A stretch of DNA of 39,939 nt from a virus (taxonomy: Duplodnaviria; Heunggongvirae; Uroviricota; Caudoviricetes): IMG/VR virus record IMGVR_UViG_2671180758_000025. One strand, given 5' to 3'. This document shows positions 19,557-39,939 of this stretch, in pieces. The notes under the pieces were generated by a model. It was not told where the DNA came from, did no database searches, and saw nothing but the letters and a program-made list of their open reading frames with translations. The translations under genes and the position numbers were made by a program. The stretch's first letter is position 1. Each line of letters starts with the position of its first letter.

Positions 19557-21323
19557 ATGAACACCACACTGACACCCGCAGATCTCGATCCCCGTCGGCA
19601 GGCCATGCTGCTGTACTTTCAGGGATACCGCGTAGCCCGCATTGCTGAAATGCTGGGCGAGAAAGTTGCAACCGTTCACAGCTGGAAAAAACGCGACAAG
19701 TGGGGTGACTATGGGCCGCTGGATCAGATGCAGCTCACCACCGCCGCACGCTACTGCCAGCTCATTATGAAGGAGCACAAAGAAGGGAAAGATTTCAAAG
19801 AAATTGACCTGCTGGCACGCCAGTCTGAGCGCCACGCGCGGATCGGCAAGTTTAACAATGGCGGCAACGAAGCCGACTTAAACCCTAACGTTGCCAACCG
19901 CAACAAAGGCCCACGTCGTCAGCCGGAAAAGAATGTTTTCACCGATGAACAGATTGAGAAACTGGAAGAAATCTTCCATTCCTCTATGTTCAACTACCAG
20001 CGCCACTGGTGGGAAGCCGGAAAAACCAACCGCATCCGCAACCTGCTGAAGTCACGCCAGATCGGCGCGACCTTTTACTTTGCCCGTGAAGCCCTGATTG
20101 ACGCCCTGCTGACCGGGCGTAACCAGATTTTCCTTTCTGCCAGCAAGGCTCAGGCCCACGTCTTTAAACAGTACATCATCGACTTTGCCAAAGAAGTGGA
20201 GGTGGAGCTGAAAGGCGATCCGATGGTGCTTCCTAACGGGGCCACGCTTTACTTCCTCGGCACCAATGCCCGCACGGCCCAGAGTTACCACGGCAACCTG
20301 TATCTGGATGAATATTTCTGGATACCGAAATTCCAGGAGCTGCGCAAAGTGGCTTCCGGTATGGCTATTCACAAAAAATGGCGACAAACCTATTTTTCCA
20401 CGCCATCCAGTCTGACACACAGTGCTTATCCGTTCTGGTCCGGTGCGCTGTTCAACCGTGGGCGCAACAAAGCCGATAAGGTGGACATCGACCTGTCCCA
20501 CAGCAATCTGGCCCCCGGCCTGCTGTGCGCAGACGGGCAATACCGCCAGATAGTCACCGTGGAAGATGCGGTGCGCGGCGGCTGTAACCTGTTCGACCTC
20601 GACCAGCTACGCATGGAGTACAGCCCAGACGAATACCAGAACCTGCTGATGTGCGAGTTTGTGGACGATCTCGCGTCCGTGTTTCCGCTCAGCGAGCTGC
20701 AGGCGTGCATGGTGGACAGTTGGGAAGTCTGGACCGACTTTCATGCACTGGCGCTGCGCCCGTTTGGCTGGCGCGAAGTGTGGATCGGTTATGACCCGGC
20801 AAAAGGTACGCAAAACGGCGACAGCGCTGGATGCGTGGTGGTGGCACCGCCAGCCGTGCCGGGTGGTAAGTTCCGCATTCTTGAGCGTCACCAGTGGCGC
20901 GGGATGGACTTCCGCGCCCAGGCTGACGCCATCAAAAAACTTACCGAACAGTACAACGTGACTTATATCGGTATCGACTCAACCGGCGTTGGTCACGGGG
21001 TTTACGAGAACGTGAAAGCGTTTTTTCCTGCCGTCCGGGAGTTTGTCTACAACCCCAACGTTAAAAACGCCCTGGTACTCAAGGCCTACGACATTATCAG
21101 CCACCGCCGTCTGGAGTTTGACGCCGGACACACCGACATAGCGCAGTCCTTTATGGCAATCCGTCGCGCCACCACCGCCAGTGGCAACCGCCCGACCTAT
21201 GAAGCCAGCCGCAGCGAAGAAGCCAGCCACGCCGATCTGGCCTGGGCAACGATGCACGCACTGTTTAACGAACCGCTGCAGGGCGAGTCCGCCAATACCA
21301 GTAATATTGTGGAGATTTTTTGA
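19557..21323 (+). CDS. P: Terminase large (ATPase) subunit (P2 gpP homolog)
   Basis: 588-aa ORF; translation recognised as gpP family. Confidence 0.93.
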   Translation: MNTTLTPADLDPRRQAMLLYFQGYRVARIAEMLGEKVATVHSWKKRDKWGDYGPLDQMQLTTAARYCQLIMKEHKEGKDFKEIDLLARQSERHARIGKFNNGGNEADLNPNVANRNKGPRRQPEKNVFTDEQIEKLEEIFHSSMFNYQRHWWEAGKTNRIRNLLKSRQIGATFYFAREALIDALLTGRNQIFLSASKAQAHVFKQYIIDFAKEVEVELKGDPMVLPNGATLYFLGTNARTAQSYHGNLYLDEYFWIPKFQELRKVASGMAIHKKWRQTYFSTPSSLTHSAYPFWSGALFNRGRNKADKVDIDLSHSNLAPGLLCADGQYRQIVTVEDAVRGGCNLFDLDQLRMEYSPDEYQNLLMCEFVDDLASVFPLSELQACMVDSWEVWTDFHALALRPFGWREVWIGYDPAKGTQNGDSAGCVVVAPPAVPGGKFRILERHQWRGMDFRAQADAIKKLTEQYNVTYIGIDSTGVGHGVYENVKAFFPAVREFVYNPNVKNALVLKAYDIISHRRLEFDAGHTDIAQSFMAIRRATTASGNRPTYEASRSEEASHADLAWATMHALFNEPLQGESANTSNIVEIF

Positions 21324-22357
21324 TGGGAAAGAGTAAGAAGAACCGCGCTGCGGCGACGAATCAGATCCAGCATAAAAACCAAACTTCAGCCGAAGCATTC
21401 AGCTTCGGTGATCCCGTTCCTGTTCTGGACCGCCGGGAACTGCTGGACTATGTGGAATGCGTACAGACAGATCGTTGGTATGAGCCGCCAGTGAGTTTCG
21501 ACGGGCTGGCGCGTACCTTTCGCGCTGCCGTGCATCACAGTTCACCAATTGCGGTGAAATGCAACATTCTGACCAGTACCTACATCCCTCACCCGCTGCT
21601 CAGCCAGCAGGCTTTTTCACGTTTTGTGCAGGACTATCTGGTATTTGGTAACGCCTACCTGGAGAAACGCACGAACCGCTTCGGTGAAGTTATCGCCCTT
21701 GAGCCTGCTCTGGCAAAATACACCCGACGCGGGTTAGACCTGAATACCTACTGGTTTGTGCAATACGGTATGACAACCCAGCCGTATCAGTTCACGAAAG
21801 GCAGCATTTTTCATCTGATGGAACCGGACATCAACCAGGAGATCTACGGCCTGCCCGGCTATCTTTCTGCCATTCCGTCCGCCCTGCTCAATGAGTCCGC
21901 CACGCTGTTCCGCCGTAAGTATTACATCAACGGCAGTCATGCTGGTTTCATCATGTACATGACCGACGCTGCGCAGAACCAGGAGGACGTGAACAACCTC
22001 CGCAACGCGATGAAAAGCGCCAAAGGCCCTGGCAACTTCCGCAATCTGTTTATGTACTCGCCTAACGGCAAAAAGGACGGGCTTCAGATTATCCCGTTGT
22101 CAGAAGTCGCAGCGAAGGATGAGTTTCTGAATATCAAAAACGTGAGCCGTGACGACATGATGGCTGCGCACCGCGTGCCGCCGCAAATGATGGGGATAAT
22201 GCCTAATAATGTCGGGGGGTTTGGGGATGTGGAGAAAGCCAGTCGCGTATTTGTACGTAATGAATTAACGCCCTTGCAAAAAAGGCTACAAGAGCTGAAC
22301 GACTGGCTGGGCGAAGAAGTGATTAAATTTACGCCCTATATTCTTTCAGAAGAATAA
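21323..22357 (+). CDS. Q: Portal protein (P2 gpQ homolog)
   Basis: Start placed at the ATG overlapping the P stop (TGATG); the supplied ORF begins 3 nt earlier at TTG. Confidence 0.9.
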   Translation: MGKSKKNRAAATNQIQHKNQTSAEAFSFGDPVPVLDRRELLDYVECVQTDRWYEPPVSFDGLARTFRAAVHHSSPIAVKCNILTSTYIPHPLLSQQAFSRFVQDYLVFGNAYLEKRTNRFGEVIALEPALAKYTRRGLDLNTYWFVQYGMTTQPYQFTKGSIFHLMEPDINQEIYGLPGYLSAIPSALLNESATLFRRKYYINGSHAGFIMYMTDAAQNQEDVNNLRNAMKSAKGPGNFRNLFMYSPNGKKDGLQIIPLSEVAAKDEFLNIKNVSRDDMMAAHRVPPQMMGIMPNNVGGFGDVEKASRVFVRNELTPLQKRLQELNDWLGEEVIKFTPYILSEE

Positions 22358-22365
22358 TTCCGAAC

Positions 22366-23064
22366 TTATTTGTTTCTTCTTTGTTCACGCCTTGTCTTGG
22401 CTTCGATAAGGCGTTGAGGTTCAGTGTAAAGCCGTTCTAAAAAAAGATAGGTAAAATCTTCAAGATCCTCAGCAGCAGCTTTATCCAAAATACCTTCATG
22501 CGCTCCATCATTTCCGTCATCTTTAACGCATTCAGCTAGTTCCCTTAAAGCTTCAGGCAGTAGATGATTATCAAATAACCACTCCATTCTTAACCCTAGG
22601 CTTCTCCTTATTTTTTGCGCAGGCCCTTGCTCCCCATCAGGAAGAAGTCCTTTTGTGGCATAATCAAGGCAAAGCCTAAACATGGTTGCTGCTGCATTAT
22701 AACAACCTATAGCCAAACATTTCGCCCCTTCCTCATATGCACTATTGATATGCTCAGGTAAGAACTCTGGTGGCTCCTCTACTGCTAAGTCTGCTGGTGA
22801 TATAGGCCTAACAACCTCTGCAACTTCCTTTAAGCCGAATATTCCACTTTCCCAATTATAGCCATCTAAAGTTTTATTTTTCGTTAAAGGTCTGCAAAGA
22901 AACATTGTCGTTTTATGACACTCTCGGCAAACACAATAGACCTCGTACTCGTATGTTTTACCCCCGCCCAATGCATTGTAAACCCTAGTGCAATTCAGCC
23001 CATTAACATCAAACGCTATTTTTTGTGATCCACATCGTGGACAGTCATCCACTAACATAACCAT
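22366..23064 (-). CDS. Hypothetical cargo protein with N-terminal Cys4 zinc ribbon
   Basis: 232-aa ORF; CPRCGS...CVCRECHKT pattern at the N-terminus, then an acidic helical C-terminal region of no family I can name. Visibly AT-rich; converges on Q. Confidence 0.6.
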   Translation of the reverse strand: MVMLVDDCPRCGSQKIAFDVNGLNCTRVYNALGGGKTYEYEVYCVCRECHKTTMFLCRPLTKNKTLDGYNWESGIFGLKEVAEVVRPISPADLAVEEPPEFLPEHINSAYEEGAKCLAIGCYNAAATMFRLCLDYATKGLLPDGEQGPAQKIRRSLGLRMEWLFDNHLLPEALRELAECVKDDGNDGAHEGILDKAAAEDLEDFTYLFLERLYTEPQRLIEAKTRREQRRNK

Positions 23065-23174
23065 GTCAATTACTTCTCCCTATGAAAAAAATGAGTTGAA
23101 AAATTGAATATTCACGACTTAAAAAGCTAGCCTATTTAACACCATAATTTCATTAATTCAACCATGAGCGCGCG

Positions 23175-23193
23175 CTCGTATCCCCGCCACGCC
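23175..23193. other. Putative cos cohesive-end site
   Basis: Minus-strand GGCGTGGCGGGGATACGAG; the first 13 nt match the 186/P2 cohesive-end sequence as I recall it (GGCGTGGCGGGGAAAGCAT / GGCGAGGCGGGGAAAGCAC). Sits in a GC-rich non-coding gap. Confidence 0.35.
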
Positions 23194-23353
23194 TGCCCGC
23201 TTTATGTAGCGGTTTTCATGCGCCTGCATGACATAAGCAAAATCCCGCCACTCCTGGCGGGCCTCAGCTAAAACGATCCTCAAACGATCATGCGGATTCA
23301 TGCGGCATAGACATGCACAATCTCCAAAGCGGGCATCGAGACTTTTTGGAAAC

Positions 23354-23965
23354 CTACGTAACCACAGTTAATGTGTGCATCCTGTCTCGAATTGCATCAC
23401 ACGTCTCATCAAAAAGCTTGGTGATGGTTGTATGGTTCAACTCCGCCTCTTTCCAATAATTTTGCCCGTCAAATTCTGGATCGCTATGCTTAAACGATAT
23501 TGACTCTGAAAGGCATTCCTTCCGGAAACGGTCCAAGATTATATAAACCTCTGGTGAGATGAACGGTTTGTTAGATTCAACACTTGTAACAAAAGTGTTA
23601 AATGCATCAAAAAAAACTTTCAACCTTCTAAATTTTCTCTCTTCAAATGGTTCGTTGGGGTCAACATGATCCAGCGCAGGCCTCAGCTTAAGCACGCTTT
23701 CTCTAGTTTCAAACATCGAATTCCAAATGAGACTATATGCTGATAACTCCTTATCAAAATACGCTTTCGTTACATAAACAGAATTGTCTAACTTAGCCTT
23801 TATTCTTTCATTAGTTGCACTCAGTTGTGATTGAAATTCAGCAATATCTTTGTTTAGCCGCGACTTATATCTTTCTAAATAAACTTTCCCGATCCAAACA
23901 AATATGCCAGATGCAACAAAAGACACCCCACCCAACGAAGCCAGAACTTTAAAGACTAAATCCAT
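23354..23965 (-). CDS. Hypothetical membrane-anchored cargo protein
   Basis: 203-aa ORF with a single N-terminal TM helix (VLASLGGVSFVASGIFVWIG) and a soluble domain of unknown family; AT-rich. Confidence 0.6.
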   Translation of the reverse strand: MDLVFKVLASLGGVSFVASGIFVWIGKVYLERYKSRLNKDIAEFQSQLSATNERIKAKLDNSVYVTKAYFDKELSAYSLIWNSMFETRESVLKLRPALDHVDPNEPFEERKFRRLKVFFDAFNTFVTSVESNKPFISPEVYIILDRFRKECLSESISFKHSDPEFDGQNYWKEAELNHTTITKLFDETCDAIRDRMHTLTVVT

Positions 23966-24013
23966 TGCGCCCCCACCTGCAAAAATAGTATTCCATTATA
24001 AGCTAATACATTT

Positions 24014-24229
24014 TTAATCAAACGGGGGATAATTCGCGTCAACCTCATCACTTCTCTGCTCTACCCTAGTGACTTCCATCAAAAACCCCAGGCCGTCATA
24101 TAGCGAAACGGGGAATTCCAGCTCAAGCCAGAAGCAGTCTTCATAGATGCGGCCCAACCAAAAACCTCCGCCACACTCCTTTGGGCGTTGAAAGAAGACC
24201 CAGTCGCCAAGGGTTAAACGTTCCAGCAC
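24014..24229 (-). CDS. Small hypothetical protein
   Basis: 71-aa ORF between the DinI-like gene and the membrane-anchored gene; coding status uncertain. Confidence 0.4.
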   Translation of the reverse strand: MLERLTLGDWVFFQRPKECGGGFWLGRIYEDCFWLELEFPVSLYDGLGFLMEVTRVEQRSDEVDANYPPFD

Positions 24230-24347
24230 CTAGCCCCGATAAATAATCTGGTGATTACTGTCTTTTTTACCCATGGCTAACGCCTCGCTACTCTCGTTGT
24301 TCAACCTTGCTGACGTCAGATTCAAGTTCTTACATCAGGAACGTTCC

Positions 24348-24581
24348 TTAGTGCAGCCAGCTGTCGTCTTCCCAAACCTGTTGCATAATTTCCATCACCC
24401 GCTTTTTGTCTTCATCAAGCTTTAAGCCACTCAGCTCAACGCCGTTTGCCGACCCTTTACGGATGCGGATAGCGGTCTTGGGATAGATGGGTTGCAGGTT
24501 GCGGTAAAGCTCGGACTCCAGAGCGTCCAGGGTAGACTGGCTAATCTTCTGCTCTTTATCGATCATTATTTCAATGCGCAT
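24348..24581 (-). CDS. DinI-family protein
   Basis: Translation from internal start MRIEIMIDKEQ...EDDSWL aligns with E. coli DinI (MRIEVTIAK...WESADDW) from memory. The supplied ORF extends to 24653. Confidence 0.75.
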   Translation of the reverse strand: MRIEIMIDKEQKISQSTLDALESELYRNLQPIYPKTAIRIRKGSANGVELSGLKLDEDKKRVMEIMQQVWEDDSWLH

Positions 24582-24591
24582 AAAAGTCACC

Positions 24592-24780
24592 TCAGCTGAT
24601 GACATCCATTGAGCGGTTGTATTCGTGGCTTCTGATTTTTGCCATGAGTTCATCAGTCAATTCAGAAACCCACTGCAGGGCCAGCCCCTTCTCTTCATCA
24701 CTACACTCACTAGCCGCTACAAGCTTAAGAAAAAAATCAATGCGCTGGAGCTTCAAAGACTCCAAAAAATAGTCCTGCAT
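24592..24780 (-). CDS. Small SOS-controlled protein (possible antirepressor-like module)
   Basis: 62-aa ORF from the ATG preceded by AGGAGG, with a LexA box 44-59 nt upstream; the supplied ORF extends to 24882. Confidence 0.5.
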   Translation of the reverse strand: MQDYFLESLKLQRIDFFLKLVAASECSDEEKGLALQWVSELTDELMAKIRSHEYNRSMDVIS

Positions 24781-24823
24781 CTTTCCTCCTATGACACCGC
24801 AAACAATACTGTATAGATAACCA

Positions 24824-24839
24824 CTGTTTATATTTACAG
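24824..24839. promoter_or_regulatory. LexA (SOS) box over a putative promoter
   Basis: CTGTTTATATTTACAG (CTGT-N8-ACAG) with A/T-rich flanks, overlapping TTTACA / TATACT-like promoter elements on the minus strand. Confidence 0.6.
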
Positions 24840-24933
24840 TATATAATAATCTTACTGATGTAAAACGTTTTTTTACGTTCATCAGCCTGATATGCCTGGT
24901 ATTATTAAGAGCACGAATTGTTAACCCGCGTAA

Positions 24934-27348
24934 TTAATACAGGTTCCGCCACTTATCATCTTCCTGCAAACGCTGGTTCCGATAGAAGACACGCAGGCCT
25001 GCTCCTGACGGAATACTGCCGCCGCGAAGGAGTAAATCGACCTCTTTCTCGCTGCCATCAAATCCTCTGGACTTCAGTTCATAGACGAGCTGCTGTCGTT
25101 GATGGTCTGTAATTCGCTGTTTGTAGTCTCTACGCCGTTTCGGTTTCACCAGGCGTAACCTTGCAGCCAGTTCCCGGCGCTCTTTTTTGTTCATACTGTG
25201 CAGGTAATCGTGCAACTCCTTGTCATCCATGTGGGTAATGTCCGTTCTGGTATCCCCATCAGCTGATTTGTCTTTCCCTTGTTGGTTCAAATTTTCAGCA
25301 AGGGGACAGTTATTGCCACGAGTCCAAGGGGCGCAAGCGCCCTGGTCGGCTGCCGCCTCCTGAATGTCAACGGCCTTACGAACCATTTTCCACTTCACCG
25401 CATGAGTGCAGATCTTGCCCTCTGCAATGGGTGACCAGATGCCATAAATACGAATACCGTGATCGCCATAGGCGGTCGGCTCTTCGTTGATTTCATAAGC
25501 GGTTCTGATGAGGTGATATTTGCGGGGAACTAGTACGCCGCCCTGCTTCATGATGTAGGTGGCAAAACAACCAGCATCAGCAGCGGCTAGGATGGCATCA
25601 AGGCGCGGGTTATCCAGTACCGGCGCACCTGCTTTTTTGTCCCCCTGTTGCCTTGCCGCCTGACCAGCCAGCAATCGCAGTTCACGGTAAGCCTGACGCC
25701 CCGGAATGCCAAAGAAGCGGAATTGCTGAACACGATGCAGAGACGCCCAGGCATTAACGTATTCAGCGTTATCACGCAGGGATTTACCCGTTTCCTTGCT
25801 GATCTCGCCAGCCAGACCACGCCCGTCAATGTTCTTACTGATGTATTTCGCGATGTAGCTTGTTGGCGTACCTTTGCGCGGGTTTATCAGCTCAGACTTA
25901 AAGCGTGGTTCCGTGTTATTACCCAGCTCCTCGCGGTCTTCACGAATGGCAAACTTACGCAACAAAGCAGTAATGGCGCGGCGATCTTTTTTGCGCATAA
26001 AACACAACAGGTGCCAGTGAACTGTACCGTCATGATGCGGCTCAGCCACCCGCACGCCATACCAGCGTAATCCGGCTTTGTGCATCGCCTTACGAAATGC
26101 AGCAAACATACCGACCAGATAATCACTGCTTTGTCTTACCGTCGCATTTGTCCAGGTCGGGTTGGGCCTGCCGTTATTTAGCGTGGAATGGAAACGTGAC
26201 GGACAGGTGATGGTGTAGAAAACGGCGCAGTCACCGCGCATTTCCGCGATAAGCTCCAGACCTTTAACACAGGCCATCATCTCATTGCGGCGATGTGCAG
26301 GGTTGCTGCTGCTGGCGTTTACCACGTCTTCCATATCCAGCGTGTCGCCGTCTTCGTTCACCAGTTCATGAGAACGGAAAAACTCCAGCGACTTACGGCG
26401 CTGCTCACGTTTATGCATCACGGCTTCATAGCTGACATAGGGAGATGCTTTTTTGCTGACCAGGCAAACAGCACGCAACTGCTCTTCCCGCCATTCGCAA
26501 CGCATCTTCCATAATTTCCGATACCACCAGTCGGCGCATAACATACGCGCCAGCGAACCCGGAATGAGTTCATAAGGCACGGGTTTACGGCGGTTTCTTT
26601 TCCGACGGAGTTGCTCAAACGCAGGCGGGATAACATCCAGACGCAGGGTTTCCGCTGCCACCTTTTCCCATGTTTTGCGGATTTCTTCTGGCTTAATGTC
26701 ATCGGTGACATACAAATCACCACAAGCTGCATCAAGGCACATGCTCATATGCGCGGCGACAAGGGTAGACAGGCGCTTCACCTGATCCTGACTCATTTCA
26801 GGCAGGATCAGCAGGCCGTCCAGCCCTTCATGGCTTGCCATAAAGCGAAAAGAAGTGGATAGCTGACAGTCGCGTACATGCTCCAGTCGTTCCAGACATG
26901 GCTTAATCGTCTCACGCAAATAGCGGGAATAAGCCTTTGGCCTGCCCAGGCTGCTGAAGTATTCAATACGTTGCATCAGCGACTTGCTGATATGGGAAGG
27001 CTGGGCGTTAACGTCCGCCAGAATGACCATGTCTGGATTAAAACGCTGCTGCTCATGCGCCAGCTTTGCCCGGCTAATGAGCTTATCCTGCTCCATTTCG
27101 CGTTGGACAGGATCACGGGATTCATTAAAGAAATAACGCTCCCAGACCTGATCACTCAGTGCCTCGCGGCGCAGCTGTTCCTGCTCGTTATCGGCAGCGT
27201 ACAGAGTGATCAGGTTTGAAAGCGCAGAAACCGGCGCAACTTCCGCCGGGTCCAGATAAGGGTTAATGGCCTTTTTCGGGCTGTTCCATGAGAACGCTGC
27301 GGCAGCCTCGTTAAAGCCGCAGCAGTTGTTCATATCGGCATGGCTCAT
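24934..27348 (-). CDS. A: Replication initiation endonuclease (P2 gpA family)
   Basis: 804-aa ORF; start overlaps the dam stop (ATGA); position and translation consistent with rolling-circle initiator A. Confidence 0.88.
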
Positions 27349-29489: not shown

Positions 29490-29999
29490 TCACAGCAATC
29501 CGAATGAAGCACCGAGGCCAGTCACGGTATCAACTGCACTCGCCATCGCAGGATTAGCCTGTAAACGGGCCTGCAATGAAACAGCCGCCAGCGCCATCAG
29601 TCGTGTTACAGAGTTAATGCTGCTGATAGCATCACGACGACCGGCACAGGTTTTTACATCGCCAGATACCGCACCTGCCGCGACACGCCCGATCTCTGCG
29701 GTTGCACTCATGACGTAATGTGGCAGTTTCTCTTTTGCCACCTCATTAATCGGTACACATGGTAGGCAGTGAATCTGTGCCAGAAAGCCATCTACCAGCG
29801 TTGAATCTTCAGTCAGATCGGTAAGCAACCAGATTTCTGGCGCTGTGAGCTGATGCGGTTGATCTGGGTTGAGTTTGTTTCGCAGTGTCTGAACATTCAT
29901 TCCTGCACGTTCTGCCAGCTTCGCCATATTGTGGCGTAGTGCAAAAGCTCTACAGGCTTCATCAAAATGCGGATGTTTGGAAATCTTGTAATCAAACAT
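29490..29999 (-). CDS. cII: CII-like lysogeny-establishment activator (186 type)
   Basis: 169-aa ORF directly downstream of apl; translation resembles phage 186 CII as I recall it. Confidence 0.75.
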   Translation of the reverse strand: MFDYKISKHPHFDEACRAFALRHNMAKLAERAGMNVQTLRNKLNPDQPHQLTAPEIWLLTDLTEDSTLVDGFLAQIHCLPCVPINEVAKEKLPHYVMSATAEIGRVAAGAVSGDVKTCAGRRDAISSINSVTRLMALAAVSLQARLQANPAMASAVDTVTGLGASFGLL

Positions 30000-30031: not shown

Positions 30032-30280
30032 TTAGCCACCAACGATGACATTAAAGTTGAAATTGGATTGGCCCATGTTTTTCCTGACTTGTTCCTTTTT
30101 GTACTCAAGGTAACGTATACATACTCTGTCTTTCGGTTTTTCCTTTTTTTCTAAAAACTTAGCGAGCTTACCATTATGAATCATTTGATATACCGAACCG
30201 CGAGAGTAGCCTTCCCATTCCGCGAACTCAGCTGGTGTCGCCATCACTTTTGGTACACGAATTGAAATGTCGTTGCTCAT
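30032..30280 (-). CDS. apl: Apl/Cox-like excisionase-repressor (small HTH protein)
   Basis: First gene of the leftward early operon, divergent from cI; start placed at MSNDISIR.... The supplied ORF extends to 30313. Confidence 0.7.
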   Translation of the reverse strand: MSNDISIRVPKVMATPAEFAEWEGYSRGSVYQMIHNGKLAKFLEKKEKPKDRVCIRYLEYKKEQVRKNMGQSNFNFNVIVGG

Positions 30281-30334
30281 AGTGCAGTATCTCTTAGTTT
30301 GTAATCGTCTCATCTCGTTTTATGTGGTTTGGTT

Positions 30335-30385: not shown

Positions 30386-30396
30386 GGGGTTTGATT

Positions 30397-31029
30397 ATGA
30401 GTCTAATCAAGGGTGGAAACGATAGTGGGGGTCGTGATGCCATCAACAGGCTGATAAAAGCCTACAATTTCAGCTCACGCCAACAACTCTGCGAACACTT
30501 AAAAGTATCAAAAAGCACCATGGCAAACAGATACTTAAGAGATAGTTTTCCAGCAGAATGGGTAATTCAATGTGCACTAGAAACCGGGATCTCGCTTCTT
30601 TGGTTGGCAACCGGACAGGGTGATATGTATGCAGATAACAGTGACGTAAACATTCTCAAAAATGATAATGACGTCACGATTAGACCACTTTCTAAAATCG
30701 TAGCTCCCAGTATCAAATACACAGAGTTAAGAAATGGTGAACTTCAATCATATGACGAAATTTTATTAGATAGCAGGTTGGTTGAGGGCGACTCGTCAAA
30801 CTATCTATTCATACAAACGACAACAGAAAGTTTTATTGTTGATGTATCTGTAAAACAGATCAGTAATGGCTCCTGGCTTGTTGATATTGATGGAGTGAAA
30901 AGCATCGTAAAAGTAGCTCGAATTCCCGGAAATAAGCTTGTTGTTCATCAGGAAGAAACAACCTTTGAATGTGCAGTTGATGACGTAGACGTTGTAGGGC
31001 GTGTGGTAAAAGTGATTAAGAGCATCTAA
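30397..31029 (+). CDS. cI: CI immunity repressor (186 type)
   Basis: Start at the ATG with AAGGGG 7 nt upstream; N-terminal HTH-like region plus C-terminal domain; followed 3 nt later by int. Confidence 0.8.
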   Translation: MSLIKGGNDSGGRDAINRLIKAYNFSSRQQLCEHLKVSKSTMANRYLRDSFPAEWVIQCALETGISLLWLATGQGDMYADNSDVNILKNDNDVTIRPLSKIVAPSIKYTELRNGELQSYDEILLDSRLVEGDSSNYLFIQTTTESFIVDVSVKQISNGSWLVDIDGVKSIVKVARIPGNKLVVHQEETTFECAVDDVDVVGRVVKVIKSI

Positions 31030-31031
31030 TC

Positions 31032-32060
31032 ATGACGATCAGAAAACAGCCGAACGGAAAGTGGTTATGTGAATGCTACCCAAACGGGAGAGATGGCAAA
31101 CGCGTACGCAAACAATTTGCGACGAAAGGCGAAGCCATTGCGTTTGAGAATTTCACCATGGATGAGGTAAACAAGAAACCTTGGCTGGGAGAAAAGGAAG
31201 ATCGGCGACCACTGTCAGAAGTGATTGAGCAATGGTATTCCCTGTACGGTCAGACACTCGCTGACCCTAAGCGATTAATGGCTAAGCTAAAAATCATTTG
31301 TAATGGGCTTGGCGATCCCATCGCTTCTGAATTGACAGCAGGTGATTTCACAAAGTACCGGGAAGCCAGATTAAAAGGTGAGATCAAAAACGAAGATGGC
31401 GTGCTCATGTCACCGGTTAAGCCCCGCACGGTAAACCTTGAACAACGCAATCTGTCATCGGTGTTCGGTACATTGAAAAAACTAGGGCACTGGTCCGCAC
31501 CAAACCCACTGGCAGGGCTTCCAACCTTCAAAATTGCTGAAGGTGAATTGGCTTTTCTTTCCACGGACGAAATCAAACGCCTGCTTAATGCCTGCGCCGA
31601 ATCTCAAAACACCAGCCTACTAATGATTGCAAAAATATGCCTGGCTACTGGTGCGCGATGGAGTGAAGCAGAAAACCTACAGGGCCACCAAATATCGAAA
31701 TACCGAATTACTTATACAAAGACCAAAGGCAAGAAAAACAGAACAGTACCCATATCACAGGAGCTGTATGACGAACTCCCAAAGAACAGAGGGAAGTTAT
31801 TCTCACCATGTAGAAAAGCCTTTGAACGAGCAGTAAAACGGGCAGGTATAGATCTACCGGAGGGCCAATGCACCCACGTACTGCGCCATACATTCGCTAG
31901 CCATTTTATGATGAACGGCGGAAACATACTCGTGTTGCGCGACATCCTTGGTCACTCGGATATAAAAATGACTATGGTTTATGCACATTTTGCACCTGAT
32001 CATTTAGAGGATGCAGTATCAAAAAACCCTTTATATAGATTAAAATGGACCACACCATGA
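31032..32060 (+). CDS. int: Tyrosine integrase (P2/186 type)
   Basis: 342-aa ORF with the C-terminal catalytic signature ...HVLRHTFASHFMMNGGNILVLRDILGHSDIKMTMVYAHF. Confidence 0.92.
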   Translation: MTIRKQPNGKWLCECYPNGRDGKRVRKQFATKGEAIAFENFTMDEVNKKPWLGEKEDRRPLSEVIEQWYSLYGQTLADPKRLMAKLKIICNGLGDPIASELTAGDFTKYREARLKGEIKNEDGVLMSPVKPRTVNLEQRNLSSVFGTLKKLGHWSAPNPLAGLPTFKIAEGELAFLSTDEIKRLLNACAESQNTSLLMIAKICLATGARWSEAENLQGHQISKYRITYTKTKGKKNRTVPISQELYDELPKNRGKLFSPCRKAFERAVKRAGIDLPEGQCTHVLRHTFASHFMMNGGNILVLRDILGHSDIKMTMVYAHFAPDHLEDAVSKNPLYRLKWTTP

Positions 32061-33235: not shown

Positions 33236-33400
33236 CTTTTTAGTTGTTTGAAGTTCAATGAAGTCTACTAAGCCCACACAGCACAAGCTCTGCGGGCTTT
33301 TTTACGTCTATTGTCGTCCAGTGAGAATTGCTGAGAACTACGAGTTATGGCACCCTGAATGGGACCCATTAAGAAGGGTCCAAAAACCGAGGGTCCCAAA

Positions 33401-34630
33401 ATGGCAAAAATCGCTAAGAAGCTCACTGACACTGAAATCAAAAGCACCAAGCCAGCCGATAAAGAAATCAACTTGTTTGACGGTGATGGTCTGATTCTAC
33501 GAATCGCTCCTTTGGCGAAAGGAGGCAAGAAAAATTGGTATTTCAGGTATGCAGTACCAGTGAGCAAGAAAAGAACCAAAATGAGCCTTGGGACATATCC
33601 TCACCTTACCCTTGCAAGAGCCAGAGCCTTACGTGATGAATATCTCTCCTTTCTGGCAAATGGTGTTGATCCCCAAATCCATAACAACGATAAGGCGAAG
33701 GCATTAAAGAGTGCTACTGAGCACACTCTCCAAGCCGTAGCGCGGAAATGGTTAGATGAGAAGGTAAAGACATCAGGTATCTCACAAGACCATGCAGCAG
33801 ACATCTGGCGCAGCTTAGAGAGAAATGTCTTTCCCGGTCTGGGTAATGTCCCTATCAATGAGATCCGACCTAAGCTCTTAAAACAACACCTTGATCCTAT
33901 TGAGCAACGAGGCGTATTGGAAACTCTACGCCGTATCATTTCACGTCTGAATGAAATCTTCCGGTGGGCAGCTACTGAAGAACTTATTGAGTTCAACCCG
34001 GCTGACAACCTTGGTCAAAGATTCAGTAAACCAAAAAAGCAAAATATGCCTGCCCTTCCCCCAAGCGAATTGCCAAGGTTTATGGAATCTTTGACGAATG
34101 CGTCAATCCGGTTGGAAACACGTATGCTAATTGAATGGCAATTGTTGACATGGGTTCGTCCGGGTGAAGCCGTTCGCGCAAGGTGGTCTGATATTGATAC
34201 AACCAACAGCATTTGGAACATTCCTGCTGATTTCATGAAAATGAAAAAGCTTCACAAAGTTCCTTTGAGTAAAGAAGCTTTGCGCATCCTTGAATTAATG
34301 AAATCAATAAGTGGGCATAGAGAATGGGTTTTCCCCAGCATAAAAGCGCCTCTTAATCATATGCATGAACAAACAGCCAACGCAGCTATCATCCGAATGG
34401 GGTTCGGAGGCGAGCTTGTAGCTCACGGTATGCGTTCTATTGCACGAACAGCGGCAGAGGAGTCTGGTAAATTCAGAGCTGAAGTTCTTGAGGCAGCGCT
34501 TGCCCACTCGAAAAAAGATGAAATTATCGCAGCATACAATCGTGCAGAATATCTGATAGAGCGACAGAGTTTGATGCAATGGTGGAGTGATTACGTTCAA
34601 GCTCAAAGATCAAATGCTCTGGTAGCCTAA
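33401..34630 (+). CDS. intA: P4-type tyrosine integrase (IntA-like, CP4-57 family)
   Basis: Start at MAKIAKKLTDTEIKSTKP... with GAGGG upstream; typical P4-family N-terminus; 165 bp from the att core. The supplied ORF begins at 33359. Confidence 0.88.
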   Translation: MAKIAKKLTDTEIKSTKPADKEINLFDGDGLILRIAPLAKGGKKNWYFRYAVPVSKKRTKMSLGTYPHLTLARARALRDEYLSFLANGVDPQIHNNDKAKALKSATEHTLQAVARKWLDEKVKTSGISQDHAADIWRSLERNVFPGLGNVPINEIRPKLLKQHLDPIEQRGVLETLRRIISRLNEIFRWAATEELIEFNPADNLGQRFSKPKKQNMPALPPSELPRFMESLTNASIRLETRMLIEWQLLTWVRPGEAVRARWSDIDTTNSIWNIPADFMKMKKLHKVPLSKEALRILELMKSISGHREWVFPSIKAPLNHMHEQTANAAIIRMGFGGELVAHGMRSIARTAAEESGKFRAEVLEAALAHSKKDEIIAAYNRAEYLIERQSLMQWWSDYVQAQRSNALVA

Positions 34631-35156: not shown

Positions 35157-36905
35157 TTATGGTAGCATCATTGATACATAATCCACACCAATCCTTGAGC
35201 TATACTGAGACGCTATAGCCTGATATCTTTCTGCATAACCAGTTCTCAGTTGAGATTTAAGTTTGAGTCGGACAGGAACATTTTGCACGTTGCCATCCAT
35301 ATTACTTAAAAACACGGCAGAAATAATATTTTTTTCTTCGCCATCAACTGTTGTTCCATGATTCAACACCACCATATAATCAACAACAGGAAGCGTTTTA
35401 TCCCCTTCGAAAATAGAGAGATATTTTCTTTGATTTTTATGCATTACATATATATATTTCGAATGTTCAGCAAATGGCAATGCTTTACTCTGACTGGCGT
35501 TAAAAAGCTCCAGAACTTTAATGAGCCTGTGCGGACTTAATCTTACATGGTGAGGGTCGTTACCCTGAGTAGGAACCAAATCACATGCCGCAGATACACA
35601 TAAATACCATTTGTTCGACTCTGTATCAAAGAAAATAGTGCCAGTAGAAATATGACCATCTTCAAAATTCTTTGAAGACAAATTCATATTTAAAGCATGA
35701 TACATTTCGTGATAAGTATCATTATTTGATGGCAGATCCATTTTTGAAGAGCAATATTGGAGCAATGCAGCAACTCCGCTGTTAGCGTATTCATTTGAAT
35801 AGCTATCAAAAACACTTTTGATAAATTCATCCAGCGTATTATTATTTTTAAGTCTTTGATAAAGCTCTTCTGATAAATTACCAAATACAAAGTCAATATT
35901 TCTACATCTAATATCAGGCGAGTCTGATTTTAATATCTCATTTAACCACGCAGCTTGACCGTAATGATCGTTAGCCAAATGATTTACAAAAGATAAAGCC
36001 TCAGCTTCGATTGCATTCTGAATTTCAGATTTTATTAACTGATAATAAGATGGTTTCCATTCAATGAGAGAATCATTGAGAGTTTGCCAAATCCTATCTC
36101 CATCGTTTTCATGATCATCTTGAACCTTATGAAATAGGGAGACAAAGATATTACCACATTGAATCCATTTTACTCCGCTTTCATCACCCCGAATGACATT
36201 GCCAGATGTGTTGCTAGAAATAATTGCATTTCTAGACACAGCATATTCTGCAATCATTTTTGCAATGAAGTTTTTATCCTTTTGATCCTCCAACACAGCA
36301 TCATCATGTATTAATCTTTTAATTCTTCTACAAGGCTTACTGTCTTTAATATAGGCTATTGTTTCATCTCTTGTGAGAGCTTTATTACCATTATCATTTA
36401 AGTTCGGTAATACAACGTCTTCCCAATAACTTTGGACATCTTCATTATCGTAGTCAATGATCAAGCTGTTGATATCCAGAGCACCTTTGAGAGTCGATGA
36501 TATCTGCATCCAAACCGTTTCTAAATTCTCTCTAGTATATATTACAATCATATTTAAATGATCGGAGTCTTTCAAATCTTGTAATAGTTTAAGTGTTTTA
36601 TCAGGTGCATTATTATCAAGATGATAATCTACAATAATAAGATCTGATTTTCTAATCCGATCCACATCGAAATTAACAGAACCATTGTCAACATCACAAA
36701 TCATATTTTTAGATTGAAAAAAGCTCTCAAGAGTAGCGGCTCGTTTAGATGAGTCAATTTTGTTGTAGTCTAAATCAACTTCGTTATTCAACGCCCTGAT
36801 TGATTCAGAATACGTCAGAAAATCGTCATCAATCATGACAACGGAACGAATTGCATTTTCGCAGAAAGTTTTCTGGACAAGAGAATTATAATTTGCCACT
36901 GTCAT
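35157..36905 (-). CDS. Receiver (REC)-domain protein with large unrecognised C-terminal domain
   Basis: N-terminus has CheY-like landmarks (VVMIDDD, LIIVDYHL, MIVIYT); about 450 aa follow with no motif I can name. Start chosen 1 nt after the kinase stop, with GGAG upstream; an ATG at 36923 is also possible. Confidence 0.7.
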   Translation of the reverse strand: MTVANYNSLVQKTFCENAIRSVVMIDDDFLTYSESIRALNNEVDLDYNKIDSSKRAATLESFFQSKNMICDVDNGSVNFDVDRIRKSDLIIVDYHLDNNAPDKTLKLLQDLKDSDHLNMIVIYTRENLETVWMQISSTLKGALDINSLIIDYDNEDVQSYWEDVVLPNLNDNGNKALTRDETIAYIKDSKPCRRIKRLIHDDAVLEDQKDKNFIAKMIAEYAVSRNAIISSNTSGNVIRGDESGVKWIQCGNIFVSLFHKVQDDHENDGDRIWQTLNDSLIEWKPSYYQLIKSEIQNAIEAEALSFVNHLANDHYGQAAWLNEILKSDSPDIRCRNIDFVFGNLSEELYQRLKNNNTLDEFIKSVFDSYSNEYANSGVAALLQYCSSKMDLPSNNDTYHEMYHALNMNLSSKNFEDGHISTGTIFFDTESNKWYLCVSAACDLVPTQGNDPHHVRLSPHRLIKVLELFNASQSKALPFAEHSKYIYVMHKNQRKYLSIFEGDKTLPVVDYMVVLNHGTTVDGEEKNIISAVFLSNMDGNVQNVPVRLKLKSQLRTGYAERYQAIASQYSSRIGVDYVSMMLP

Positions 36906-36906
36906 A

Positions 36907-38776: not shown

Positions 38777-39643
38777 CTAAGCGAGGTTCTTGTTTTCAAA
38801 TTGTTCCGGACTGAGGCCGCCACACCAACTGTGCCGCCGCCACCGATTGTAATCACATTCGATATAATTAAACACCGTTGCCCGCATTATTTCCCGGCTG
38901 ATAAAGTGTTCTCCATGGATACATTCCACTTTCAGCGAATGAAAGAAGCTTTCCACGCAGGCATTATCGTAGCAGCAACCTTTTGCGCTCATACTTCCAC
39001 GCAGATTATGCCGCTTCAGTTGCGCCTGATAATCTGCTGAACAGTACTGGCCTCCACGGTCCGTGTGAACGATAACGTTCCGGGGCCTCTTACGCCGCCA
39101 CAGCGCCATCTGCAGGGCATCGCAGGCCAGTTGCGCCGTCATGCGTGGCGACATTGACCAGCCAATAACGGCACGTGACCACAGGTCAATGACCACTGCC
39201 AGATACAGCCAGCCTTCATCTGTACGTAAGTACGTGATGTCTCCTGCCCACTTCTGGTTCGGGCCACTGGCGTAAAAATCCTGCTCCAACAGATTTTCTG
39301 ACACAGGCAGACCGTGTGCGCGGTAGCAGACCGGGCTGAACTTCCGGGAGGCCTTTGCCCTCAGTCCCTGACGGCGCAGGCTTGCCGCCACGGTTTTTAC
39401 GTTAAAGGGGTAACCCTGAGCACGCAGTTCATCCGTCAGGCGTGGGGCACCGTAACGCTGTTTTGACCGGGTAAAAGCCGCGAGGACAACGCTGTCGCAG
39501 TGTTGGCGGAACTGCTGACGCGTGCTTATCCTTGTCCGCCGCTGACACCACGTATACCAGCCGCCGCGGGCCACCCGGAGCACGCGGCACATTGCTTTGA
39601 TGCTGAACTCAGCCTGATGTTTTTCAATAAAGACATACTTCAT
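38777..39643 (-). CDS. insF: IS3 transposase OrfB (integrase core)
   Basis: 288-aa ORF recognised as IS3 InsF; normally expressed as an OrfAB fusion by -1 frameshift. Confidence 0.9.
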
Positions 39644-39939
39644 TTCAGGCGCTTCGCGAAGTATGTCGCGGCCTTTTGGAGGATAGCCAGCTCTTCATCC
39701 CGTTCTGCCAGCTGGCGTTTGAGACGTGCAATCTCGGTAGACATCTCCAGTTCACGTTCAGAAGACGTCTGCTGATTTTGCTGTTTACTGCGCCAGTTGT
39801 AGAGCTGTGATTCATACAGGCTGAGTTCACGGGCTGCGGCAGTAACACCGATGCGTTCAGCAAGCTTCAGGGCTTCACTGCGAAATTCAGGCGAATGCTG
39901 TTTACGGGGTTTTTTACTGGTTGATACTGTTTTTGTCAT
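39640..39939 (-). CDS. insE: IS3 transposase OrfA (HTH)
   Basis: 99-aa ORF recognised as IS3 InsE; its start codon is the last triplet of the window. Confidence 0.9.

What the first reader, a model, noticed from the sequence alone, without database searches (positions are those of the whole stretch)
24348..24839. LexA box in front of a small-gene/DinI-like pair: an SOS-controlled module downstream of gene A
A perfect CTGT-N8-ACAG box (CTGTTTATATTTACAG) overlaps a sigma70-like promoter 44-59 nt upstream of a 62-aa ORF that has a strong AGGAGG ribosome-binding site, followed by a DinI-like gene. In phage 186 prophage induction is triggered by an SOS-controlled antirepressor (Tum), so this is the likely induction switch here. 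Any read-through would also place the downstream cargo genes (24014-24229, 23354-23965) under SOS control.
Basis: partly seen in the sequence, partly recalled or inferred. Interest (0 to 1): 0.55.

Follow-up and report, generated by a model that had tools for sequence, protein, structure and literature searches.

The report
SOS-controlled prophage induction switch (tumA–tumB)

Summary
The window has one CTGT-N8-ACAG box (24824-24839). It overlaps a TTTACA-N15-TATACT promoter, 44-59 nt upstream of a 62-aa ORF (24780-24592, minus strand) with an AGGAGG ribosome-binding site. A DinI-family gene follows (24581-24348), and all of this lies just downstream of replication gene A.

The interpretation also holds, and the system is already known. 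It is the SOS operon of a Fels-2-like P2/186-family prophage. The DNA is 98% identical to phage Cartapus and 91% to Fels-2. The 62-aa protein is 100% identical to ECHS_RS04495 of E. coli HS. That gene is the "tum" whose deletion, like lexA(Ind-), abolishes mitomycin-C induction of prophage DuoHS (Nat Microbiol 2025). A profile of the 62-aa family matches residues 6-48 of 186 Tum (E 8e-10). The DinI-like protein is 43% identical to Tum residues 71-145. This is the split TumA/TumB arrangement described for PSP3 and Fels-2. The repressor is 186-type and has no S24 protease domain.

Additions from this work:
- The operator aligns without gaps to the two overlapping SOS boxes of colicin E1-type operators.
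- The 71-aa "cargo" ORF is an amber-truncated remnant of an 86-codon gene.
- Read-through into the cargo genes is plausible here but is not a general feature of this phage group.

Novelty: already known.

The parts
24934..27348 (-). Replication gene A (P2 gpA-type endonuclease). This is the upstream neighbour that fixes the module's position.
   Evidence: Pfam Phage_GPA E 3.9e-128. The order matches 186, Fels-2, PSP3, Cartapus and DuoHS.
24859..24864 (-). Candidate -35 hexamer TTTACA of the tum promoter.
   Evidence: Best hexamer pair in the region from my own scan. It aligns with the TTGACA of colicin promoters. Identical in Fels-2, DuoHS and Cartapus. Not experimentally mapped.
24838..24843 (-). 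Candidate -10 hexamer TATACT with a 15-nt spacer, overlapping the left half of LexA box 1. The alternative is TACTGT at 24841-24836 with a 17-nt spacer, as annotated for 186 p95.
   Evidence: 186 annotation. The strict scan did not report it.
24824..24839 (.). LexA (SOS) box 1, a perfect CTGT-N8-ACAG. The 20-mer at 24822-24841 matches the consensus at 17 of 20 positions.
   Evidence: 0 of 100 shuffles reach this match. Conserved upstream of tum/tumA in five related phages. Invariant in Fels-2, DuoHS and Cartapus.
24809..24824 (.). Putative LexA box 2 (GTGG-N8-ACAG on the minus strand), sharing 1 bp with box 1. This is the colicin-type overlapping double operator.
   Evidence: Gap-free alignment with the colicin E1/10-family operator about 38 nt upstream of colicin genes. 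In 64 distinct upstream sequences the half-sites are at least 90% conserved and the variation is concentrated in the centre of the N8 spacer. LexA binding was not tested.
24785..24790 (-). Shine-Dalgarno sequence AGGAGG of tumA.
   Evidence: Read directly from the sequence.
24592..24780 (-). tumA: a 62-aa antirepressor, homologous to the N-terminal domain of 186 Tum.
   Evidence: 100% identical to E. coli HS ECHS_RS04495, the experimentally deleted 'tum'. 97% identical to Fels-2 STM2728. A family HMM hits 186 Tum residues 6-48 at E 8e-10. AlphaFold predicts a two-helix hairpin with pLDDT 88. PHROG 698, 'unknown function'.
24586..24603 (-). Small hairpin GTCATC-AGCTGA-GGTGAC followed by TTTTAT. 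It spans the tumA stop codon and the tumB Shine-Dalgarno sequence. Its likely role is translational coupling or weak attenuation (inferred).
   Evidence: Flagged by the terminator scan. In Fels-2 the only changes are in the loop.
24348..24581 (-). tumB: a 77-aa DinI-family protein, homologous to the C-terminal half of 186 Tum.
   Evidence: Pfam DinI E 2e-24. 43% identity to Tum residues 71-145. Matches E. coli DinI structure 1GHH at E 2e-9. Below the NCBIfam DinI equivalog cut-off, so it is not the chromosomal orthologue.
24014..24274 (-). Remnant of an 86-codon cargo gene (Cartapus CARTA_46). CAG has become TAG at 24232-24230, leaving the 71-aa GTG-started ORF 24229-24014.
   Evidence: RefSeq leaves it unannotated in the 99.7% identical genome.
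23354..23965 (-). 203-aa AT-rich cargo gene of unknown function. It is co-oriented with tumAB and has a possible own promoter, TTGATT-N15-TATAAT, just upstream.
   Evidence: PHROG 26391, unknown function. No Pfam hit above cut-off. No PADLOC hit.
23244..23261 (-). First intrinsic-terminator-like hairpin downstream of tumB (CCCGCCAGGAGTGGCGGG followed by ATTTTGCTT). It is the likely 3' end of any read-through transcript.
30391..31029 (+). CI immunity repressor of the 186 type, the presumed target of TumA.
   Evidence: Pfam Phage_CI_repr E 1.4e-32 plus Phage_CI_C E 2.3e-35, with no Peptidase_S24 hit. 31% identity to 186 CI and 80% to Fels-2 CI.

Best explanation
This is the SOS operon of a Fels-2-like (P2/186-family) prophage in E. 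coli.

In the lysogen, LexA binds the operator over the -10 region and start site of the tum promoter and keeps it off. Box 1 is certain as a sequence match. An overlapping colicin-type box 2 is probable. DNA damage activates RecA and LexA cleaves itself. The promoter then fires and produces one mRNA encoding two proteins.

- TumA is a 62-aa two-helix protein. It acts as an antirepressor: it binds the 186-type CI repressor and stops it holding the lytic promoter, so the prophage enters lytic growth.
- TumB is DinI-like. It is translated from a start coupled to the tumA stop codon. It most likely modulates RecA filament activity, and through that the strength or duration of the SOS signal.

Shown here:
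- the sequence anatomy;
- the homology of both proteins to the two halves of 186 Tum;
- the identity of TumA to an experimentally validated Tum;
- a repressor with no self-cleavage domain.

Inferred:
- LexA binding at this particular copy;
- TumA acting on this particular CI;
- the role of TumB;
- read-through into the downstream cargo genes.
For: Anatomy.

Same layout as the annotated 186 p95/LexA/tum operon and as Fels-2, PSP3, Cartapus and DuoHS.

The module DNA is 98% identical to Cartapus and 91% to Fels-2. The operator and promoter are identical in Fels-2, DuoHS and Cartapus.

TumA is identical to ECHS_RS04495. The Phollow paper names that locus tag as tum. Its deletion and lexA(Ind-) both block mitomycin-C lysis and the formation of viral foci.

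The TumA family HMM hits 186 Tum residues 6-48 at E 8e-10 and a Yersinia phage 'tum protein' at E 3e-10, in a database of 1540 ORFs.

TumB is 43% identical to Tum residues 71-145 and is a Pfam DinI member.

Literature: Fels-2 and PSP3 have tum split in two by a stop codon, and in PSP3 the upstream gene carries the antirepressor activity (PMC3121763).

The Fels-2 DinI-like gene STM2727 was induced 5.5- to 14.8-fold by the mutagen MX, and STM2726-2728 was flagged as one co-regulated operon (PMC2225428).

CI has the Phage_CI_repr and Phage_CI_C domains and no S24 peptidase domain.
Against: Pairwise BLASTP finds no similarity between the 62-aa protein and 186 Tum or PSP3 TumA. The profile also does not reach PSP3 TumA (E 7).

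The window's CI is only 38% identical to the DuoHS CI on which the identical TumA was shown to act. Action on this CI is therefore inferred.

Cartapus in LF82 has a 98% identical module but was not among the prophages reported as ciprofloxacin-induced.

The promoter has a short 15-nt spacer and failed the strict scan.

No experiment was done on this exact sequence.
Confidence: 0.9

Rival explanations
1. The module is SOS-regulated but is not this prophage's induction switch. On this view TumA does not recognise this CI immunity type, and the pair only modulates the host SOS response through the DinI-like protein or serves a co-resident phage.
For: Nearly identical TumA proteins are paired with CI proteins that are only 34-80% identical to the window's. 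Cartapus was not reported as ciprofloxacin-induced. Cross-acting antirepressors exist in Salmonella (PMC3121763).
Against: Among the partners of near-identical TumA, the CI N-terminal DNA-binding domain (residues 14-77) stays 59-98% identical while the rest falls to 22-70%. This suggests TumA recognises a conserved surface. The window's CI is 80% identical overall, and 98% in the N-terminal domain, to that of Fels-2. Fels-2 is the prophage reported to make a lexA null mutation lethal in Salmonella (Bunny 2002, whose title is cited). No other induction route is visible, because CI has no S24 domain.
Confidence: 0.06
2. CI itself is inactivated by RecA-stimulated autocleavage, as in lambda, and the tum module is dispensable.
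For: A weak PHROG 'UmuD-like' hit to CI residues 135-211 (E 7e-4).
Against: Pfam assigns the C-terminus to Phage_CI_C (E 2e-35) and gives no Peptidase_S24 hit. CI is homologous to 186 CI. By established knowledge, and in PMC3121763, 186 CI is inactivated by Tum binding and not by cleavage. In DuoHS the tum deletion alone blocks induction.
Confidence: 0.02
3. The LexA box is a chance A/T-rich palindrome, and the two small ORFs are expressed constitutively or not at all.
For: The 8-base core alone is expected 0.4 times per window. The promoter spacer is suboptimal.
Against: A 17-of-20 match to the 20-mer consensus did not occur in any of 100 shuffles. A box is present at the same place in five divergent relatives. 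It is invariant across close relatives. The Fels-2 orthologue is induced by a mutagen.
Confidence: 0.02

Closest known systems
Coliphage 186 SOS operon (p95, LexA site, tum, orf97)
   Same: It lies directly downstream of gene A at the cos-proximal end. A LexA box overlaps the -10 region. The N-terminal antirepressor part and the DinI-like part occur in the same order. The CI/Apl/CII switch is of the 186 type.
   Different: 186 Tum is one 146-aa polypeptide with internal starts, whereas here there are two genes. 186 has a single LexA box, whereas here a second overlapping box is probable. 186 has the partial terminator t95a and then orf97. Here no terminator is predicted after tumB and the cargo is unrelated. 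TumA is only about 21% identical to the Tum N-terminus.
Split TumA/TumB of Fels-2 (STM2728 / STM2726.1) and PSP3
   Same: Two ORFs are separated by a stop codon, with the antirepressor upstream and the DinI homologue downstream. The Fels-2 module is 91% identical in DNA and 97% in TumA, with an identical operator.
   Different: PSP3 TumA is not detectably similar in sequence to this TumA. The cargo after tumB differs from Fels-2, and the divergence starts at the tumB stop codon.
Tum of prophage DuoHS in E. coli HS (ECHS_RS04495), Phollow study, Nat Microbiol 2025
   Same: The 62-aa protein is identical and the operator is nearly identical. It was shown genetically to be required, together with cleavable LexA, for mitomycin-C induction.
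   Different: The DuoHS CI is only 38% identical to the window's CI. The integration site differs (rcdA/ybjL region there, next to ssrA here) and so does the cargo.
Double overlapping SOS boxes of colicin operons (colicin E1/10 family)
   Same: A 35-nt operator aligns without gaps. Box 1 and box 2 share one base pair. Box 2 is GTGG-N8-ACAG in both. The operator sits between the promoter and the ribosome-binding site. [quoted passage not shown]
   Different: Here the operator controls a prophage antirepressor and not a toxin. Box 1 here is a perfect CTGT-N8-ACAG, whereas colicin E1 has CTGT-N8-CCAG. The spacing from the -35 hexamer differs by 8 nt in the alignment. Binding of two LexA dimers is untested here.
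LexA-controlled antirepressor operons of the Gifsy prophages (dinI homologue plus antirepressor)
   Same: A LexA-regulated operon pairs a DinI homologue with a small antirepressor that binds a non-cleavable repressor.
   Different: The gene order is reversed, with the dinI homologue first. The antirepressor and repressor families are unrelated, and the phages are lambdoid.

Membership tests
186 Tum-type LexA-controlled antirepressor module | A LexA box overlaps the promoter immediately upstream of the gene. | tested here: met
   Box at 24824-24839, a 17-of-20 match to the consensus with 0 of 100 shuffles reaching it. It overlaps the candidate -10 hexamer. The same holds in 186, PSP3, Fels-2, ESSI-2 and YenM.
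186 Tum-type LexA-controlled antirepressor module | Location between replication gene A and the cos/portal end of a P2/186-family genome. | tested here: met
   Gene A is at 24934-27348 and portal Q at 21320-22357. The order matches.
186 Tum-type LexA-controlled antirepressor module | Sequence homology to the N-terminal (antirepressor) part of Tum. | tested here: met
   Pairwise BLASTP is negative. An HMM of 28 family members hits 186 Tum residues 6-48 at 34-35 bits, E 8e-10 in 1540 ORFs. The next unrelated hit has E about 1.
186 Tum-type LexA-controlled antirepressor module | A DinI-like part follows the antirepressor part. | tested here: met
   Pfam DinI at 86 bits. 43% identity to Tum residues 71-145.
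186 Tum-type LexA-controlled antirepressor module | The cognate repressor is a 186-type CI that lacks an autocleavage domain. | tested here: met
   Phage_CI_repr plus Phage_CI_C with no S24 hit. 31% identity to 186 CI.
186 Tum-type LexA-controlled antirepressor module | The protein binds CI and prevents operator binding, and it is required for SOS induction. | not testable with these tools
   The only support is indirect. The identical protein is required for DuoHS induction, and literature on 186 Tum is cited.
186 Tum-type LexA-controlled antirepressor module | Transcription is induced by DNA damage in a LexA-dependent way. | not testable with these tools
   The Fels-2 orthologous operon is induced 5.5- to 14.8-fold by MX. 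lexA(Ind-) blocks DuoHS induction.
Split TumA/TumB form (PSP3, Fels-2) | Two separate ORFs, with a stop codon between the antirepressor and DinI-like parts. | tested here: met
   The tumA TGA is at 24594-24592 and the tumB ATG is at 24581. The Shine-Dalgarno sequence GAGGTG overlaps the stop codon.
Split TumA/TumB form (PSP3, Fels-2) | Sequence similarity to the PSP3 TumA protein. | tested here: not met
   BLASTP gives no alignment and the HMM gives E 7. Similarity to the Fels-2 counterpart is 97%. The window therefore belongs to the Fels-2 sequence type and not the PSP3 type.
DinI family (Pfam PF06183) | Score above the Pfam gathering threshold over the whole domain. | tested here: met
   86.1 bits against a cut-off of 24.2, covering profile positions 1-63 of 63. 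It matches solved DinI structure 1GHH at E 2e-9.
Chromosomal DinI orthologue (NCBIfam NF007893 equivalog) | Score above the equivalog cut-off. | tested here: not met
   53.7 bits against a cut-off of 111. It is a phage paralogue and not dinI itself.
Colicin-type double overlapping SOS operator | Two 16-bp LexA-box-like elements that share one base pair. | tested here: met
   Box 1 is 24839-24824 and box 2 is 24824-24809. The alignment to colicin E1/10-family operators has no gaps.
Colicin-type double overlapping SOS operator | Cooperative binding of two LexA dimers. | not testable with these tools
   The only support is the sequence similarity and the conservation pattern of the half-sites.

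The most novel reading that the evidence does not exclude
In the Fels-2 group the tum promoter may carry a colicin-type pair of overlapping LexA boxes instead of the single box of 186. These boxes are homologous to colicin E1/10 operators and would bind two LexA dimers. That would give very tight repression and late, all-or-none induction of the antirepressor. In this particular phage the same SOS-gated transcript may also run, with no terminator, into the gpA-gpQ defence hotspot cargo, which would couple cargo expression to DNA damage. I found no paper in the searchable library describing either point for Fels-2-type phages. The key 2002 paper (Bunny et al.) could not be read.
Probability: 0.35. 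Interest if true: 0.4.

Novelty: already known. Interest (0 to 1): 0.2.

Why it matters
The finding matters mainly for annotation and interpretation.

- The 62-aa antirepressor decides whether a very common group of E. coli, Klebsiella and Salmonella prophages wakes up after DNA damage. Part of the 22300-25000 region matches in 1282 of 5426 complete E. coli genomes. At least 593 IMG/VR contigs encode a relative.
- Despite this, the protein is labelled 'hypothetical protein' or 'unknown function' in every database checked. In a few phage and UniRef records it is mislabelled 'levan regulatory' protein. Linking this family to Tum allows SOS-inducibility of such prophages to be predicted from sequence.
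- The colicin-like double operator, if real, would explain tight repression and low spontaneous induction.
- The operator sits at the edge of the P2 defence hotspot. This raises the testable idea that some hotspot cargo is gated by the SOS response.

Tried and rejected
- Pairwise BLASTP of the 62-aa protein against 186 Tum and PSP3 TumA gave nothing. PSP3 TumA against 186 Tum also gave nothing. Only a family profile made the link to 186 Tum.
- Pfam, NCBIfam and PADLOC have no family for the 62-aa protein. A profile search of PDB sequences found no solved relative.
- The exhaustive phmmer search found 67 cluster representatives. All were short proteins, and none was fused to a DinI domain.
The single-protein query returned only relatives that are 98-100% identical, so the promoter footprinting has little evolutionary depth.
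- Bunny et al. 2002 (PMC151935) and Gillor et al. 2008 (PMC2729051) are not held. I could not check whether they describe the double box.
- A text search for the operator string returned only unrelated primer sequences.
- I did not compute a heterology index, because I do not have the published matrix. I used consensus mismatches and the homology to colicin operators instead.
- I did not run a fold search on the TumA model, because a two-helix hairpin gives uninformative matches.
- I considered RecA-driven autocleavage of CI and rejected it.
- I considered a general operon link between tumAB and the hotspot cargo and rejected it. After tumB there are at least 25 junction types, some with terminators or opposite-strand genes.
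Full report
**What is there**

On the minus strand, directly after replication gene A (24934-27348; Pfam Phage_GPA E 4e-128), the sequence reads as follows:

TTTACA (24864-24859) – 15 nt – TATACT (24843-24838) / CTGTAAATATAAACAG (24839-24824) TGGTTATCTATACAG (…24809) – 18 nt – AGGAGG (24790-24785) – AAAG – ATG (24780).

The ATG opens a 62-codon ORF ending at TGA 24594-24592. The Shine-Dalgarno sequence GAGGTG overlaps that stop codon. A second ATG at 24581 opens a 77-codon ORF ending at 24348.

The CTGT-N8-ACAG core occurs once in the window. By itself this is not improbable: 0.4 matches are expected. The 20-mer, however, matches the LexA consensus at 17 of 20 positions, and none of 100 shuffles reached that. 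My hexamer scan ranks TTTACA/N15/TATACT first. The built-in stricter scan does not report it, because the spacer is 15 nt.

**What it is**

The second ORF is a DinI-family protein (Pfam, 86 bits against a cut-off of 24). It matches the solved E. coli DinI structure 1GHH at E 2e-9. It falls below the NCBIfam cut-off for the chromosomal dinI orthologue.

The whole 641-bp module is 98% identical to Escherichia phage Cartapus, the P2-like prophage of strain LF82. It is about 90-92% identical to many Klebsiella, Escherichia and Salmonella phages of the Peduoviridae, including Fels-2 at 91%.

The GenBank record of coliphage 186 annotates the same layout. Gene A is followed by promoter p95, whose -10 region is overlapped by a LexA site. 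Next comes tum ('expression repressed by LexA; inhibits CI DNA binding'), with internal starts that yield a truncated DinI-like Tum. Then come a partial terminator and orf97. The window's DinI-like protein is 43% identical to Tum residues 71-145.

PSP3 annotates two genes at this position: tumA ('similar to 5' end 186 tum; UV induction of prophage') and tumB ('similar to dinI and 3' end of 186 tum'). Lemire et al. [quoted passage not shown] They add that in PSP3 the upstream gene carries the antirepressor activity (PMC3121763).

**Is the 62-aa ORF really a TumA?**

Pairwise BLASTP finds nothing against 186 Tum or PSP3 TumA. No Pfam, NCBIfam or PADLOC family exists for it. PHROG 698 is labelled 'unknown function'.

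An exhaustive phmmer search found 67 cluster representatives, nearly all 55-75 aa long. The family consensus is MxDLFxESxALQRIxLxxRLVAxxxCSxxDKELALxWxxELTxEL.

I built an HMM from 28 of these sequences and searched 1540 ORFs from the window and the fetched loci. It hits 186 Tum residues 6-48 (35 bits, E 8e-10) and a Yersinia phage protein annotated 'tum protein' (E 3e-10). The next unrelated hit has E about 1. PSP3 TumA is not reached.

AlphaFold predicts a two-helix hairpin with mean pLDDT 88.

The decisive point is experimental. The protein is 100% identical to ECHS_RS04495 of E. coli HS. The supplement of the Phollow paper gives that locus tag for 'tum'. Its in-frame deletion, or a non-cleavable lexA(Ind-) allele, abolishes mitomycin-C-induced lysis and viral foci of prophage DuoHS. 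The tum deletion leaves the host SOS reporter response intact, whereas lexA(Ind-) abolishes it (PMC12055606).

The promoter and operator are identical in the window, DuoHS, Fels-2 and Cartapus, except for a few bases in one spacer.

In Salmonella TA100, which carries Fels-2, the DinI-like gene STM2727 was the most significant of the listed LexA-regulon genes. It was induced 5.5- to 14.8-fold by the mutagen MX. STM2726-2727-2728 was flagged as one co-regulated operon (PMC2225428).

**The target**

The window also carries the rest of a 186-type switch:
- CI at 30391-31029, with Pfam Phage_CI_repr and Phage_CI_C and no S24 peptidase domain. It is 31% identical to 186 CI and 80% to Fels-2 CI.
- An Apl/Cox-like excisionase at 30032-30313.
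- CII at 29490-29999.
- An integrase at 31032-32060.

The late genes appear complete. Lambda-style autocleavage of the repressor is therefore unlikely, and an antirepressor is the expected route to induction.

**A caveat and a lead**

TumA proteins that are 97-100% identical sit next to CI proteins that are only 34-80% identical to the window's. The divergence is uneven. CI residues 14-77, the helix-turn-helix domain including the motif FPAEWVIQCALETG, remain 59-98% identical. The rest falls to 22-70%.

This fits TumA recognising the conserved N-terminal domain, but that is an inference. It also means that TumA acting on this particular CI is inferred and not shown.

A second caveat concerns LF82. 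Cartapus produced few virions there and was not among the prophages reported as ciprofloxacin-induced (PMC9928086).

**The operator resembles a colicin operator**

MAFFT aligned the single LexA box of 186, PSP3, ESSI-2 and YenM with the sequence immediately downstream of the window's perfect box, not with the perfect box itself. That downstream sequence is GTGG-TTATCTAT-ACAG (24824-24809). It shares one base pair with box 1.

A 51-nt query from the Fels-2 operator matched 1118 plasmid records. Many are small mobilizable E. coli plasmids, matched at 81-85% identity over 47 nt. In the two I opened, the match lies about 38 nt upstream of a colicin E1-like or colicin-10 gene.

The alignment has no gaps:
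- window: ACTGTAAATATAAACAGTGGTTATCTATACAGTA
- colicin plasmids: (G/A)CTGTATATAAAACCAGTGGTTATATATACAGTA

I examined 64 distinct upstream sequences from 80 IMG/VR loci. Both half-sites of box 2 are at least 90% conserved. The main variable columns fall in the centre of its spacer. All these loci are close relatives, so this test is weak.

I rate a functional second box as probable but unproven.

**Downstream genes and the read-through claim**

Sequence identity with Fels-2 and DuoHS ends at the tumB stop codon. From there to portal gene Q lies the gpA-gpQ interval, which Rousset et al. 2022 describe as a defence hotspot of P2-like phages (PMC9122126).

No intrinsic terminator is predicted on the minus strand between tumB and 23261-23244. 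In 186, orf97 belongs to the SOS operon. Read-through is therefore plausible here. Three points qualify it:

- The '71-aa ORF' (24229-24014) is the remnant of an 86-codon gene that is intact in Cartapus. Codon 15 has changed from CAG to TAG at 24232-24230.
- The 203-aa gene (23965-23354, 36% G+C) is preceded by TTGATT-N15-TATAAT, which could be its own promoter.
- Among 78 IMG/VR loci with the same tumA-tumB pair there are at least 25 different junctions after tumB. Some have a strong terminator about 135 nt downstream, and some have cargo on the opposite strand. SOS wiring of the cargo is therefore not a general property of the group.

**Verdict**

The feature is a further copy of a known, experimentally characterised system: the LexA-controlled Tum antirepressor of 186, in the split TumA/TumB form of Fels-2, identical in TumA to DuoHS. 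Novelty is 'already known'.

The residual interest lies in three points: the annotation gap for the TumA family, the colicin-type double operator, and the possible SOS gating of hotspot cargo in this variant.

Noticed in passing
24807-24841: The tum operator aligns without gaps to the double overlapping SOS boxes of colicin E1/10-family plasmids. Box 2 (GTGG-N8-ACAG, 24824-24809) shares 1 bp with the perfect box 1. 186, PSP3, ESSI-2 and YenM phages have a single box.
   Followed up: yes
24014-24274 (amber codon at 24230-24232): The 71-aa 'cargo' ORF is the tail of an 86-codon gene that is intact in phage Cartapus (CARTA_46). A CAG-to-TAG change at codon 15 truncates it here and in a 99.7% identical E. 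coli genome, where RefSeq leaves it unannotated.
   Followed up: yes
30391-31029 versus 24592-24780: TumA proteins that are 97-100% identical are paired with CI repressors that are 59-98% identical in the N-terminal HTH domain but only 22-70% identical elsewhere. This hints that TumA targets the conserved N-terminal domain and can serve several immunity types.
   Followed up: partly
24592-24780: Annotation gap. The TumA family has no Pfam, NCBIfam or PADLOC model, and PHROG 698 is labelled 'unknown function'. Database names are 'hypothetical protein' or, wrongly, 'levan regulatory protein'. Several distant members end in a glycine-rich tail finishing in LQ or FQ, which this copy lacks.
   Followed up: partly
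24586-24603: A small hairpin followed by TTTTAT spans the tumA stop codon and the tumB Shine-Dalgarno sequence. The Fels-2 differences fall only in the loop. It may serve translational coupling or weak attenuation.
   Followed up: no
24310-24347: Two perfect 10-bp palindromes lie just after the tumB stop codon: GGAACGTTCC (24347-24338) and CTGACGTCAG (24319-24310). A related (G/A)AACGTT(G/C)C motif follows tumB in many IMG/VR loci that carry different cargo, so it may mark the cargo-exchange junction.
   Followed up: partly
24854-24884: An imperfect inverted repeat, CTGATGAACGT-AAAAAAA-CGTTTTACATCAG, lies between the end of gene A and the tum promoter and overlaps the candidate -35 hexamer. 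Its function is unknown. It could be a terminator for gene A or a binding site.
   Followed up: no
23354-23965: A 203-aa AT-rich protein with a hydrophobic N-terminus is labelled 'valyl-tRNA synthetase' in some RefSeq genomes. That label rests on a sub-threshold coiled-coil match (Pfam E 0.009), so it is almost certainly a misannotation.
   Followed up: partly
22366-23064: A 232-aa protein with an N-terminal CxxC…CxxC motif and a DUF4145 domain. It has a weak PADLOC hit to PD-T7-4 (E 1e-6). It sits in the gpA-gpQ defence hotspot of P2-like phages and is a candidate anti-phage gene.
   Followed up: partly
698-1060 and 33359-34630: A tmRNA gene (ssrA) lies at the left end, next to the prophage's late-gene end. 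A second, P4-type integrase (423 aa) follows the prophage's own integrase. This suggests two elements in tandem at ssrA, which I recall as the Fels-2 attachment site.
   Followed up: no
35157-38625 and 38777-39939: Beyond the prophage lie two large co-oriented ORFs (588 and 572 aa) with no PADLOC assignment. A pair of transposase-like ORFs follows (288 aa and 99 aa; not run against any family library). The large ORFs may be part of a defence island.
   Followed up: no
IMG/VR loci among L018-L137: The exact 18-mer TACTGTAAATATAAACAG also occurs in about 19 viral contigs in a different context, followed by TGTTGAG…TCAACGCTGA. The same LexA box therefore appears to be used by another gene family.
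   Followed up: no
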